64,000 nucleotides of DNA from assembly GCF_045037415.1 (NCBI RefSeq), contig NZ_CP173438.1. One strand, 5' to 3'. The notes below the pieces were generated by a model, which saw only the letters and a list, made by a program, of their open reading frames with translations, did not search any database and had not been told where the DNA came from. The position numbers and the translations under genes were made by a program. Positions 60,620 through 62,282 of this stretch are shown one piece after another; position 1 is the stretch's first letter; every line of letters starts with the position of its first letter. The DNA is from Escherichia coli (lineage in GTDB: Bacteria; Pseudomonadota; Gammaproteobacteria; Enterobacterales; Enterobacteriaceae).

Positions 60620-60981
60620 TTAATACCTCTGAATTTATTTTCAACATGGAATATTTATTCCACCGGGGACTAAAAAAACCAGAAATCCCAGGGCGTTGCG
60701 CGGCAAGACTTACGCTGCTGCATCATACTCAGGAACATTCTGCCTCCTTACACCGTCAGTTACATGTCCGGGTAATCATCAGTTGACCTGATATCATCTT
60801 GAATATATATTCAATAATGATTCTTTATTCAATTATGCCGCCTGTTTTTTATTTTTGTCCATCGCTGATTTTAAGGATTGGTTAAAGTTAGAACTCCATC
60901 ACACTTAACTGTCTTCTTTTTTCGCGTATGATAAAAGCCTCTAAGATAAGGGCGGTACGTTAATGATTTACGGGGAAATAT

Positions 60982-61932
60982 ATGGCTAAGCAGGATGAAC
61001 AGCGGCTACTGGTGAAGATCGCCACTCTTTACTATCTTGAGGGGCGAAAACAGTCTGACATCGCCCAACTTCTCTCGCTTTCTCAGTCATTTATATCCAG
61101 AGCGCTAACCCGTTGCCAGAAAGAAGGCGTGGTTAAAATCAGCGTTGTCCAGCCGTCAAATATCTTTCTCAATCTGGAAAAAGGCATTGAAGAGCGTTAC
61201 GGCATTAAACAAGCGATTGTTGTCGATACCGAAGATGATGCCAGTGATCACACCATTAAACGCGCCATCGGCTCTGCCGCCGCGCACTATCTGGAAACGC
61301 GTTTAAGGCCAAAAGATTTCATTGGCGTCTCTTCGTGGAGTTCTACGATTCGCGCGATGGTCGATGAAGTTCACGCCCAAAACTTAAAAGCCAGCGGCGT
61401 TATTCAGCTGCTGGGCGGCGTGGGGCCAAACGGCAATGTGCAGGCAACTATTTTGACACAGACCCTGGCCCAGCATCTGAATTGCGAAGCCTGGTTGCTT
61501 CCTTCTCAAAGCATTGAAGGTTCGGTAGAAGAGAAAAAACGCCTGGTGGCAAGCCAGGATGTGGCTGACGTTATCGCCAGATTTGACGACGTCGATATCG
61601 CCATTGTCGGCATCGGTATCCTTGAACCCTCGCAGTTGCTAAAAACCTCGGGCAACTATTATCACGAGGATATGTTACAGGTACTAGCGGATCGCGGTGC
61701 TGTGGGCGATATCTGCCTGCACTACTACGATAAACATGGTCAGCCCGTGTTGCAGGACGATGAAGATCCAGTGATTGGTATGGCACTGGATAAAATCAAA
61801 AAATGCCCGAATGTGGTGGCACTGGCGGGCGGCAAAGACAAAGTTGCCGCCATCAAAGGCGCCATGCAGGGTGGTTATATTGATGTTTTGATCACTGATT
61901 TCCCCACCGCCAGAATGCTGATTGCGGATTAA
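60982..61932 (+). CDS. SorC/DeoR-family transcriptional regulator with sugar-phosphate-binding domain
   Basis: 316 aa; N-terminal HTH and a C-terminal region typical of SorC-family sugar-binding domains. Confidence 0.75.
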   Translation: MAKQDEQRLLVKIATLYYLEGRKQSDIAQLLSLSQSFISRALTRCQKEGVVKISVVQPSNIFLNLEKGIEERYGIKQAIVVDTEDDASDHTIKRAIGSAAAHYLETRLRPKDFIGVSSWSSTIRAMVDEVHAQNLKASGVIQLLGGVGPNGNVQATILTQTLAQHLNCEAWLLPSQSIEGSVEEKKRLVASQDVADVIARFDDVDIAIVGIGILEPSQLLKTSGNYYHEDMLQVLADRGAVGDICLHYYDKHGQPVLQDDEDPVIGMALDKIKKCPNVVALAGGKDKVAAIKGAMQGGYIDVLITDFPTARMLIAD

Positions 61933-62282
61933 TCCTCTCCTCCCTTTCTTCTGCCCGCCTTTGCGAAAAAATCTTCTCGCAAAGGTGATTGCTTAAAAAG
62001 CCTTTAATATCAATAAACTGAAAGGATTCAACAATCCTGTTTCTCGAGGCTTTCTCACCCTGTCACCACGCTTCTAAGTGTGATAGCCAGCACATTTGAT
62101 GATTTTTTCTCTAGCTCAGGAAGAATAATCTGGCTAAGGTATAAATAAATAATCAGTATCGAATATATATTCATGCCTTAACACAAAATGTCACAGCAGG
62201 GCCTGATGAAGTAATAACGTGACCATGAGGAACGCCTCATCTCCTTCCACGCCAGGATGCAATGTGACTCAGGAGACTACCT

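What the first reader, a model, noticed from the sequence alone, without database searches (positions are those of the whole stretch)
60648..62172. Perfect 12-bp palindrome GAATATATATTC present twice, bracketing the SorC regulator gene
GAATATATATTC occurs at 60801-60812 (between the transketolase operon and the regulator gene) and again at 62161-62172 (about 110 bp upstream of the kinase gene). A related near-palindrome GGAATATTTATTCC lies at 60648-60661, 29 bp upstream of the transketolase operon start. Repeated palindromes in all three promoter regions of the locus are the expected signature of operator sites for the locus-encoded SorC-family repressor.
Basis: seen in the sequence. Interest (0 to 1): 0.55.

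Follow-up and report, generated by a model that had tools for sequence, protein, structure and literature searches.

The report
Operator sites of the apiose-cluster repressor
The repeated AT-rich palindrome is very probably the DNA site where the locus's own SorC/DeoR-type regulator binds to switch off the D-apiose (plant sugar) utilisation genes of pandemic E. coli lineages; it is an ordinary kind of switch, but it had not been described in any text I could search.

Summary
GAATATATATTC is exact at 60801-60812 and 62161-62172, and GAATATTTATTC lies at 60649-60660. About 0.002 exact copies are expected in 64 kb.

The locus is the D-apiose catabolic island of E. coli ST131/STc14: aptAB, a SorC-type regulator, then aplK with an ABC transporter and two dehydrogenases.

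The palindrome travels with the regulator gene. It holds the same promoter positions in 67 genomes from about 15 genera, across at least five gene orders. These include a Klebsiella isomerase-type cluster and a 62% GC genome whose regulator is 59% identical.

Each palindrome is the strong half of a two-box operator, with a weaker box exactly 18 bp away. The extended box TTGAA-N6-TTCAA, followed by a second TTCAA, has the grammar of the solved B. subtilis DeoR operator. The recognition helix LSQSF(I/V)SR, with the DeoR Arg39 equivalent, is invariant.

A DNA-only metagenome scan found 91 two-box sites. Seventy-seven are in apiose clusters. The other 14 lie upstream of one remote isomerase-like gene in Pantoea.

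Inferred promoters place the boxes from about -5 to +25, which suggests repression.

Binding, the transcription starts and the inducer are untested. This is a new member of a known kind.

The parts
60649..60660 (.). Strong box C, GAATATTTATTC, 29 bp upstream of the aptA start codon.
   Evidence: A box with one mismatch or fewer sits 28-31 bp from the aptA ATG in 60 loci mapped by tblastn. Four more sit where the aptA match was missing or cut, so no distance was measured. The same holds in K. pneumoniae L069.
60631..60642 (.). Weak partner box C', GAATTTATTTTC. It starts 18 bp from box C and abuts the aptA ribosome-binding site (ACCTCT at 60625-60630 on the + strand).
   Evidence: two mismatches. 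It is conserved in the 31-locus alignment. The consensus is GAnttaAAATTC in the register of the pair.
60799..60814 (.). Strong box A, a perfect 16 bp palindrome TTGAATATATATTCAA with the 12-mer core at 60801-60812. It contains TATATT, the -10 of the rightward promoter.
   Evidence: It is present 153-190 bp (266-278 bp in two loci) upstream of the regulator ATG in 64 loci. It has the same TTGAA-N6-TTCAA form as B. subtilis DeoR OL (PMC11229326).
60819..60832 (.). Weak partner box A', GATTCTTTATTC at 60819-60830, with the TTCAA direct repeat at 60828-60832, 18 bp after the TTCAA of box A.
   Evidence: Conserved as GATTcTtTATtCAA in 52 distinct sequences and in every arrangement.
60832..60861 (-). 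Predicted leftward promoter for aptAB: -35 TGGACA (60861-60856), 18 nt spacer, -10 CATAAT (60837-60832). The inferred start is near 60825, which puts boxes A' and A at about -5 to +25.
   Evidence: Consensus scan, 10 of 12 matches. Both hexamers are conserved while the spacer varies. The counterparts are TTGGAC-17-CATAGT in Pantoea and TGGACA-17-TATCTT in K. pneumoniae (read). The start site is not measured.
60783..60811 (+). Predicted rightward, self-regulated promoter of the regulator gene: TTGACC, 17 nt, TATATT. Its -10 lies inside strong box A.
   Evidence: 10 of 12. The -35 TTGAC[C/T] is kept in 27 of 31 E. coli-type loci.
60888..60932 (+). Second predicted regulator promoter, TTAACT-16-TATGAT (60905-60932), preceded by a CRP-like site TTAGA-N6-TCACA (60888-60903).
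   Evidence: 9 of 12. The blocks CATCACACTTAAC and TATGAT are conserved. An equivalent GATCACAAA block occurs in Pantoea.
60982..61932 (+). Gene for the SorC/DeoR-subfamily regulator (316 aa): a short N-terminal helix-turn-helix plus a sugar-binding domain.
   Evidence: Pfam PF04198 covers residues 63-314 at 6.5e-62. NCBIfam gives DeoR 201 bits and LsrR 136 bits, both below their cut-offs. PDB hits are 2r5f, SorC 2w48, DeoR 8r7y and LsrR. The recognition helix LSQSF(I/V)SR is invariant.
62079..62094 (+). CRP-like site TGTGATAGCCAGCACA upstream of aplK.
   Evidence: Read. TGTGAT and CACA are invariant and the spacer varies across 31 loci. This is a consensus match only.
62135..62140 (+). Candidate -10 hexamer TAAGGT of the aplK promoter. 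It puts the CRP-like site centre near -61.5.
   Evidence: The block CTGGCTAAGGTA is conserved. The strict promoter scan did not report it, so this is inference.
62143..62154 (.). Weak partner box B', AAATAAATAATC, starting 18 bp before box B.
   Evidence: TAAATAAATAATCA is conserved in 31 loci. Two-mismatch versions, AAATATATAATC, occur in L024 and L031.
62161..62172 (.). Strong box B, GAATATATATTC, 110 bp upstream of the aplK start codon.
   Evidence: It is present 68-184 bp upstream of the kinase gene in 32 loci.
59789..60619 (-). aptA, the apulose-4-phosphate transketolase N-terminal subunit and first gene of the leftward operon.
   Evidence: The gene is named in PMC13001218.
58861..59796 (-). 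aptB, the transketolase C-terminal subunit.
   Evidence: PMC13001218.
62283..63803 (+). aplK, the FGGY apulose kinase. It is the first gene of the rightward operon, which continues beyond the window with the ABC transporter and two SDR dehydrogenases.
   Evidence: PMC13001218.

Best explanation
The three palindromes are the high-affinity halves of three two-box operators. They are recognised by the SorC/DeoR-subfamily regulator encoded at 60982-61932, the local regulator of the D-apiose catabolic island.

Each operator is a strong box (core GAATATATATTC, extended TTGAA-N6-TTCAA) plus a weaker box exactly 18 bp away that keeps mainly the GA...TATTC(A) part. By homology with B. subtilis DeoR and CggR, one dimer of DNA-binding domains reads each box. 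The two dimers are held together through the sugar-binding domains as a tetramer.

The operators sit as follows:
- At aptAB (leftward) and at aplK plus the transporter and dehydrogenase genes (rightward), they lie from about -5 to +25 of the inferred promoters.
- Strong box A also covers the -10 of a rightward promoter of the regulator gene itself.
- A third operator lies between the leader and the ribosome-binding site of aptA.

Binding should therefore block initiation or early elongation and also self-regulate the regulator. A phosphorylated pathway intermediate, most plausibly apulose 4-phosphate made by AplK, would release the protein. CRP-like sites suggest an added layer of catabolite control.

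Shown here: the sites, their pairing, their conservation, their exclusive association with the regulator and its regulon, and the family and recognition helix of the regulator.

Inferred: the binding itself, the tetramer, the transcription starts, repression rather than activation, and the inducer.
For: Exactness and improbability of the sites.

The locus is the experimentally functional D-apiose cluster (PMC13001218 and its bioRxiv version).

All 160 sites with one mismatch or fewer in 67 related loci sit at the aptA, regulator/sbp or aplK promoters, and none sits elsewhere in 0.83 Mb. The same holds across different gene orders, in the K. pneumoniae isomerase-type cluster, and in a 62% GC genome with a 59% identical regulator, where both pairs again have 18 bp spacing.

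Phylogenetic footprint: the boxes are invariant and the surrounding DNA varies.

The partner box lies at exactly 18 bp in all three site classes.

The regulator is a SorC/DeoR-subfamily protein. Its recognition helix is invariant across all loci that share the motif. The Arg equivalent to DeoR R39, which contacts the G and T of TTGAA, is conserved (PMC11229326).

The DeoR operator is TTGAA-N6-TTCAA plus a further TTCAA. It is bound only as a whole by a tetramer (PMC11229326).

A DNA-only scan of metagenomes with the two-box pattern gave 91 stretches. Seventy-seven are in apiose clusters. The other 14 are all upstream of one remote gene family in Pantoea-like genomes, in species whose apiose cluster has the same operator. 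None is in an unrelated context.

Conserved promoter hexamers lie next to the boxes.

The palindrome is at chance level elsewhere in an island-bearing E. coli chromosome.
Against: - No binding, footprint, expression or transcription-start data exist for this regulator in any text I could search. Carter et al. 2018 was not readable.
- The strong boxes also match the core of the ArgR ARG box, so another protein could in principle read them.
- The centre-to-centre distance of the two boxes (18 bp) differs from that in the DeoR operator (about 22 bp), so the DeoR tetramer model may not transfer unchanged.
- The aplK promoter is not found by the strict consensus scan.
- Some family members, such as Klebsiella SorC (my own knowledge), both activate and repress.
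- In L060 the boxes are degenerate although the recognition helix is unchanged.
- Only about 6% of one E. coli genome was scanned for extra sites.
Confidence: 0.85

Rival explanations
1. The boxes are ARG boxes. The arginine repressor ArgR binds them and ties the cluster to arginine status.
For: CTTGAATATATATTCAAT (60798-60815) fits the 18 bp ARG-box pattern (a/t)nTGAAT(a/t)4ATTCAn(a/t) at all positions but the first. I recall that consensus from my own knowledge. The conserved positions G4, A6, T7, A12 and T13 are stated in PMC6640053. ArgR and its box are conserved across bacteria.
Against: The canonical ArgR site is two 18 bp boxes separated by 3 bp (2 or 3 bp) (PMC6640053, PMC4381063). Here the partner box is in register only at 0 bp separation, 18 bp centre to centre. 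In the 3 bp register the second box does not match (read). The motif follows the SorC regulator and its regulon only: 91 of 91 metagenome hits. It has no link to arginine genes. ArgR is reported to be a poor roadblock downstream of start sites.
Confidence: 0.04
2. The conserved AT-rich blocks are core promoter elements (-10 or UP-like) read by RNA polymerase, not by a specific regulator.
For: TATATT inside box A is a predicted -10 with a conserved -35. The boxes are AT-rich and lie at promoters.
Against: The conserved G/C-capped dyad GAA...TTC, the identical 12-mer at three differently placed sites, the fixed 18 bp partner box, and positions downstream of the inferred starts and next to ribosome-binding sites are not promoter features. 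The same two-box unit precedes a remote gene. A box can serve as both a -10 and an operator, so the two ideas are not exclusive.
Confidence: 0.05
3. The palindromes act at the RNA level, as hairpins in the leaders of aptA and aplK (attenuation or translation control).
For: Boxes C and C' lie in the aptA leader next to the ribosome-binding site. The boxes upstream of sbp in Klebsiella and Pantoea are also leader-proximal.
Against: There is no Rfam match at E of 1 or less. The predicted folds are weak, -3.9 to -7.4 kcal/mol, and no better than shuffles, with z from -1.2 to -1.8. The 12-mer has no loop. Box A would have to work on both strands.
Confidence: 0.02
4. A different sequence-specific or nucleoid protein (such as Fis, IHF, H-NS or another local factor) binds the sites.
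For: AT-rich promoter DNA of horizontally acquired islands is a common target of nucleoid proteins.
Against: Such proteins do not need an exact, dyad-symmetric 12-mer kept across genera and in a 62% GC genome. The only regulator gene consistently linked to the motif is the SorC-type one.
Confidence: 0.03

Closest known systems
B. subtilis DeoR and its dra-nupC-pdp operator (SorC/DeoR subfamily; PMC11229326)
   Same: The domain plan is the same: a short helix-turn-helix plus the PF04198 sugar-binding domain. The operator grammar is the same: a TTGAA-N6-TTCAA palindrome as the strong half plus a second, degenerate half that keeps a TTCAA direct repeat. The Arg39 equivalent and the S..SR recognition helix are conserved. 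The operator lies in the intergenic region next to the regulator gene and overlaps promoter elements.
   Different: Full-length similarity is modest (PDB 8r7y, E 3e-33). The NCBIfam DeoR score is 201 bits against a cut-off of 420. DeoR R34 is Gln here. The TTCAA repeats are 18 bp apart here against 22 bp in DeoR. The DeoR operator is at -60 to -21, whereas here it is inferred at about -5 to +25, with three operators instead of one. The pathway and presumably the effector differ (dR5P for DeoR).
B. subtilis CggR and the gapA operator (SorC/CggR subfamily; PMC11229326, PMC2943609)
   Same: Tandem half-operators of unequal affinity are bound by a dimer of dimers. The operator lies downstream of the transcription start. 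The effector is a sugar phosphate.
   Different: CggR has a roughly 100-residue winged-helix DNA-binding domain and a GC-containing repeat (CGGGACN6TGTC-type). The box sequences are unrelated.
E. coli LsrR and Klebsiella SorC
   Same: They belong to the same subfamily and have similar length (PDB 4go1/4l5i and 2w48). They are local regulators of divergent sugar or AI-2 operons that include an FGGY kinase whose product is the inducer (LsrK/LsrR, my own knowledge).
   Different: The NCBIfam LsrR score of 136 bits is far below the cut-off of 486. The recognition helices differ (LTRLKVSR and IYRTTISR against LSQSFISR). I could not read their operators, so no sequence comparison was made.
ArgR ARG boxes
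   Same: The core TGAAT-(A/T)4-ATTCA is identical.
   Different: The pair spacing is 0 bp against 2-3 bp. The gene context and the linked regulator differ.

Membership tests
SorC/DeoR-subfamily repressor-operator system | The regulator has a short N-terminal helix-turn-helix followed by the SorC-type sugar-binding domain (PF04198). | tested here: met
   PF04198 covers residues 63-314 at E 6.5e-62. Weak HTH hits cover residues 14-52. Full-length alignments exist to SorC 2w48, DeoR 8r7y and LsrR. The best NCBIfam models are DeoR and LsrR, both below their equivalog cut-offs, so it is neither of those two proteins.
SorC/DeoR-subfamily repressor-operator system | The operator is made of two half-operators, one per dimer of DNA-binding domains (tetramer on DNA). 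| tested here: met
   This is met at the sequence level only. Every strong box has a partner box exactly 18 bp away at all three site classes, in all gene orders and in distant relatives. The oligomeric state was not tested.
SorC/DeoR-subfamily repressor-operator system | The half-operator has the TTGAA-N6-TTCAA form read by the conserved recognition helix. | tested here: met
   Box A is TTGAATATATATTCAA exactly. Boxes B and C keep GAA-N6-TTC with one outer base changed. The DeoR R39 equivalent (R40) and S34/S39 are conserved, while R34 is replaced by Q35. The comparison sequence comes from PMC11229326.
SorC/DeoR-subfamily repressor-operator system | The operator overlaps or directly follows the promoter of the controlled operon. 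| tested here: inconclusive
   Consensus promoters with conserved hexamers flank the boxes. No transcription start is measured, and the aplK promoter is only a conserved TAAGGT block.
SorC/DeoR-subfamily repressor-operator system | The protein binds the operator, and a phosphorylated sugar releases it. | not testable with these tools
   This needs EMSA or footprinting with purified protein, with and without apulose 4-phosphate and other intermediates.
ArgR operator (ARG boxes) | An 18 bp imperfect palindrome matching the ARG-box consensus (G4, A6, T7, A12, T13 conserved). | tested here: met
   Positions 60798-60815 match at all but position 1 (read). The conserved positions are as stated in PMC6640053. 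The full consensus is recalled from my own knowledge.
ArgR operator (ARG boxes) | Two boxes separated by 2-3 bp (39 bp site, same face of the helix). | tested here: not met
   The partner boxes are in register at 18 bp, not 20-21 bp, in all loci. In the 3 bp register the second box fails at G4, A5, A6 and A12-A16.
ArgR operator (ARG boxes) | Association with arginine biosynthesis or transport genes. | tested here: not met
   All 91 metagenome hits and all 67 genome loci are apiose-cluster genes or one sugar-isomerase-like gene.
D-apiose catabolic cluster, transketolase pathway (Carter et al. 2018; Royer et al. 2026) | Split transketolase aptA/aptB, FGGY kinase aplK and an RbsB-like ABC transporter lie together, downstream of the ent genes in E. 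coli B2 lineages. | tested here: met
   The gene content and position between entD and hokE/ybdK are shown. The island is present in 630 of 5426 complete E. coli genomes. The description, gene names and growth on apiose are in PMC13001218. I did not compare the sequences with strain SE15 directly.

The most novel reading that the evidence does not exclude
The strong boxes are read by two proteins. Besides being the operator of the apiose regulator, they are near-perfect single ARG boxes. Arginine-bound ArgR could therefore occupy them and couple apiose catabolism in ST131 to amino-acid status.

A second, independent novelty that the evidence leaves open is the remote xylose-isomerase-like gene. 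It carries the same operator in Pantoea and is related to PDB 3ktc. It may mark an unrecognised step or branch of apiose metabolism.
Probability: 0.07. Interest if true: 0.55.

Novelty: new member of a known kind. Interest (0 to 1): 0.35.

Why it matters
D-apiose use is a lineage-defining metabolic trait of the pandemic E. coli clones ST131 and ST1193/STc14. The authors who described it could not address its regulation (PMC13001218).

A defined operator motif and promoter layout give three direct handles:
- Mutations that should make the pathway constitutive or uninducible.
- A motif for tracing the regulon in other species. It already picks out one remote, uncharacterised isomerase-like gene in Pantoea.
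- A second natural example of the DeoR-type two-box operator, with a different half-site spacing (18 against 22 bp), for testing the tetramer model derived from B. subtilis.

It does not change how this family is thought to work.

Tried and rejected
- RNA-level explanation: there is no Rfam hit at E of 1 or less in 60500-62400, and the folds of the three operators are no better than shuffles. Rejected.
- DNA looping between operators A and C with fixed phasing: the A-to-C distance ranges from 89 to 157 bp among E. coli-type loci, so no conserved phasing exists. Not supported, though not excluded.
- The remote TIM-barrel gene as the 'missing' apiose isomerase of Pantoea: the Pantoea cluster already has an ApsI-like gene after aplK. 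Rejected in that simple form. The gene has no DNA-level homologue in E. coli genomes.
- Literature: the 12-mer occurs only in four unrelated papers. A search for apiose, apulose and transketolase together found nothing. Carter et al. 2018 is not held, by DOI or by PMC id. The Acta D paper on the DeoR/CggR DNA-binding domains was not found.
- The next relative after P0121, at 44% identity (P0122), sits in an apiose-like cluster, but its DNA could not be fetched.
- A whole-genome scan was not possible.
- The T-run next to box C: in Pantoea it is the U-tract of a clear terminator after the permease gene. In E. coli I found no hairpin before it, and the terminator scan did not report one. Its role there remains open.
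Full report
OBSERVATION.
The sequence is as described. GAATATATATTC is exact at 60801-60812 and 62161-62172. GAATATTTATTC is at 60649-60660, inside GGAATATTTATTCC at 60648-60661. These are the only copies with one mismatch or fewer in the 64 kb window.

Markov models of order 1-3 expect 0.002-0.003 exact copies per 64 kb and about 0.2 per 5 Mb. With the base composition of the two intergenic regions, the chance of two exact copies in 712 bp is about 1e-8.

Six dispersed 50 kb samples of an island-bearing E. coli chromosome contain no exact copy, one one-mismatch copy and eight two-mismatch copies. 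That is chance level.

WHAT THE LOCUS IS.
The window is E. coli. The genes lie in an accessory island of about 11 kb between entD and hokE/ybdK, present in 630 of 5426 complete genomes. The island holds:
- A split transketolase on the minus strand, at 59789-60619 and 58861-59796.
- A SorC-type regulator at 60982-61932.
- An FGGY kinase at 62283-63803.
- Beyond the window, an RbsB-like binding protein, a DUF2291 protein, an ABC ATPase, a permease and two SDR dehydrogenases.

This is the D-apiose degradation cluster (aptA, aptB, aplK and others) described for ST131 and STc14. It was shown to support growth on apiose (PMC13001218 and bioRxiv 10.1101/2025.09.14.675865). The J Bacteriol text does not contain 'regulator', the preprint does not contain 'repressor' or 'promoter', and the preprint's authors state that they could not assess regulation.

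COMPARATIVE EVIDENCE.
A search of one genome per species with the regulator protein returned 67 loci. I mapped the ten island genes on them.

At least five gene orders exist:
- The E. coli type.
- kin-aptB-aptA divergent from the regulator.
- The Pantoea type, with the transporter operon divergent from the regulator and aptAB after the permease gene.
- Further variants.

In all of them the palindrome occupies the same functional places. All 160 sites with one mismatch or fewer lie in one of three places:
- 28-31 bp upstream of the aptA start.
- 153-190 bp upstream of the regulator start (266-278 bp in two loci). In Pantoea this is also the leader of the transporter operon.
- 68-184 bp upstream of aplK.

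None lies anywhere else in 0.83 Mb.

An alignment of the 31 E. coli-type intergenic regions shows the boxes as invariant islands in otherwise variable DNA.

The Klebsiella pneumoniae cluster has an ApsI-type isomerase instead of the dehydrogenases and a 76% identical regulator. It carries the motif upstream of aptA, in the aptA-regulator spacer and upstream of the transporter operon.

A 62% GC genome with a 59% identical regulator has GAATATTTATTC and GCATATTTATTC in the one divergent promoter region of its cluster.

THE UNIT IS A PAIR OF BOXES.
Each strong box has a weaker partner exactly 18 bp away, start to start:
- A: TGAATATATATTCA-N5-GATTcTtTATtCAA.
- B: AAATAAATAATC, then box B.
- C: GAATTTATTTTC, then box C.

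The partner is conserved in every site class and gene order. It recurs in the Klebsiella locus and in both pairs of the high-GC locus. Even the degenerate boxes of L060 come in pairs 18 bp apart.

THE REGULATOR AND THE FAMILY PRECEDENT.
The protein has the PF04198 sugar-binding domain and a short N-terminal helix-turn-helix, which makes it SorC/DeoR subfamily. It is not DeoR or LsrR itself, because both NCBIfam scores are well below their cut-offs.

The solved B. subtilis DeoR operator is ATTGAACAAAATTTCAATTACCAATTTACATATGTTCAA. It is a TTGAA-N6-TTCAA palindrome plus a degenerate second half that ends in a TTCAA direct repeat. A tetramer (a dimer of dimers) binds it only as a whole, and R39 contacts the G and T of the arm (PMC11229326).

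Box A in the window is TTGAA-TATATA-TTCAA, with TTCAA again 18 bp on (60828-60832). That is the same grammar with a shorter repeat distance (18 against 22 bp).

The aligned recognition helix is LSQSFISR here against ISRPTVSR in DeoR. It keeps the R39 equivalent and both serines, and replaces R34 by Gln. LSQSF(I/V)SR is invariant from E. coli to the 59% identical relative, which matches the invariance of the box.

INDEPENDENT ASSOCIATION TEST.
I searched the metagenome collection with DNA only, using GAATATATATTC-N6-GATTNTNTATNC. This gave 91 stretches.

Seventy-seven are inside apiose clusters, next to the regulator, aptA or the binding-protein gene.

The other 14 all lie 55-70 bp upstream of one 330-residue xylose-isomerase-like TIM-barrel gene. 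The copies are 90-100% identical to one another. Cluster members are named from Pantoea piersonii, septica and latae, and the closest solved structure is 3ktc. No SorC homologue lies nearby. These are species whose apiose cluster has the same operator (L034-L036).

The motif thus defines a small regulon and appears in no unrelated context.

HOW IT PROBABLY WORKS (inferred).
A consensus scan finds a leftward promoter, TGGACA-18-CATAAT (60861-60832). Both of its hexamers are conserved while the spacer varies. The counterparts are TTGGAC-17-CATAGT in Pantoea and TGGACA-17-TATCTT in Klebsiella. This places boxes A' and A at about -5 to +25 of the aptAB transcript.

A rightward promoter, TTGACC-17-TATATT, has its -10 inside box A and a -35 kept in 27 of 31 loci. 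This suggests autoregulation.

Upstream of aplK, three conserved elements precede boxes B' and B with almost the same geometry:
- A CRP-like site, TGTGAT-N5-CACA (62079-62094), whose half-sites are invariant.
- A TAAGGT block (62135-62140).
- The B' and B boxes themselves.

Box C with C' sits between the leader and the aptA ribosome-binding site.

These positions fit repression by promoter occlusion or an early roadblock. CggR also acts downstream of the start, at +32 to +77, and DeoR overlaps the -35 (PMC11229326).

The inducer is likely a phosphorylated intermediate such as apulose 4-phosphate. This rests on analogy with dR5P for DeoR and FBP for CggR (PMC11229326) and with phospho-AI-2 for LsrR (my own knowledge). 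It is the least secure step.

RIVALS.
The strong box with its flanks is also a near-perfect ArgR ARG-box core. However, canonical ArgR sites are two 18 bp boxes 2-3 bp apart (PMC6640053, PMC4381063), while these pairs are in register only at 0 bp. The motif follows the SorC regulon, not arginine genes. I give this rival about 4%.

A pure promoter-element reading does not explain the G/C-capped dyad, the pairing, or the positions downstream of the starts.

An RNA hairpin reading is unsupported.

VERDICT.
These are two-box, DeoR-type operators of the local regulator of the D-apiose island.

It is a new, previously undescribed member of a well-known kind of switch. It is of moderate practical interest for the biology of ST131 and for regulon tracing. 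It would not surprise a specialist.

Binding, the transcription starts, the direction of control and the inducer remain to be shown experimentally.

Noticed in passing
L101 5131-6120 (minus strand), operator at 6186-6215; also L073, L078, L087, L091, L095, L100, L107, L128, L147, L150, L153, L155, L161: A single 330-aa xylose-isomerase-like TIM-barrel gene ('sugar phosphate isomerase/epimerase family', close to PDB 3ktc) in Pantoea-like genomes carries the same two-box operator, GAATATATATTC-N6-GATTATATATTC, 55-70 bp upstream. No SorC gene is nearby. It is probably a remote member of the apiose regulon with unknown function, and it has no DNA-level homologue in E. coli.
   Followed up: partly
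window 62079-62094: There is a CRP-like site, TGTGATAGCCAGCACA, upstream of aplK. Both half-sites are invariant and the spacer varies in 31 loci. Its centre lies about 61 bp upstream of the start inferred from the conserved TAAGGT block, which suggests catabolite control.
   Followed up: partly
window 60888-60932: A second candidate promoter of the regulator gene (TTAACT-16-TATGAT) is preceded by a conserved TCACA half-site (TTAGA-N6-TCACA). An equivalent conserved GATCACAAA block sits upstream of the regulator gene in Pantoea.
   Followed up: partly
window 60672-60678; L034, L040, L065, L067 between the permease gene and aptA: An A7 run (T7 on the aptA strand) 8-12 bp from strong box C is kept in all gene orders. 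In Pantoea it is the U-tract of a clear intrinsic terminator after the permease gene, ending 6-10 nt before the box. In E. coli no hairpin precedes it, and its role there (a relic, or a -35/UP-like element) is open.
   Followed up: partly
window 60798-60815 and the other strong boxes: With their flanks, the strong boxes match the ArgR ARG-box core TGAAT-(A/T)4-ATTCA. The pair spacing (0 bp) is not the canonical 2-3 bp, but cross-binding by ArgR is not excluded.
   Followed up: partly
window 61958-61985: A 9 bp inverted repeat, CCTTTGCGA-N10-TCGCAAAGG, begins 26 bp after the regulator stop codon. No T-run follows it. It may be a weak terminator or another binding site.
   Followed up: no
L069 (K. 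pneumoniae) 1-14951: K. pneumoniae carries the isomerase-type apiose cluster next to entD/fepA, the same chromosomal neighbourhood as the E. coli island. An Rpn-family (Transposase_31) gene is wedged between the regulator and the transporter operon.
   Followed up: no
L060 3648-3677, 5679-5690, 7385-7414: In one uncultured Enterobacteriaceae variant (kinase moved behind aptB) all the boxes are degenerate, with two mismatches each. They are still paired at 18 bp, and the regulator's recognition helix is unchanged.
   Followed up: no
hit H1 (NZ_OZ040716.1): One E. coli genome has an IS903B-family insertion inside the region matched by window 58800-64000.
   Followed up: no
L167 13618-13629 (E. 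coli SK1144, between cutC and torY): This is the only one-mismatch copy (AAATATATATTC) in 300 kb of sampled chromosome. It is consistent with chance and was not examined for a partner box.
   Followed up: no
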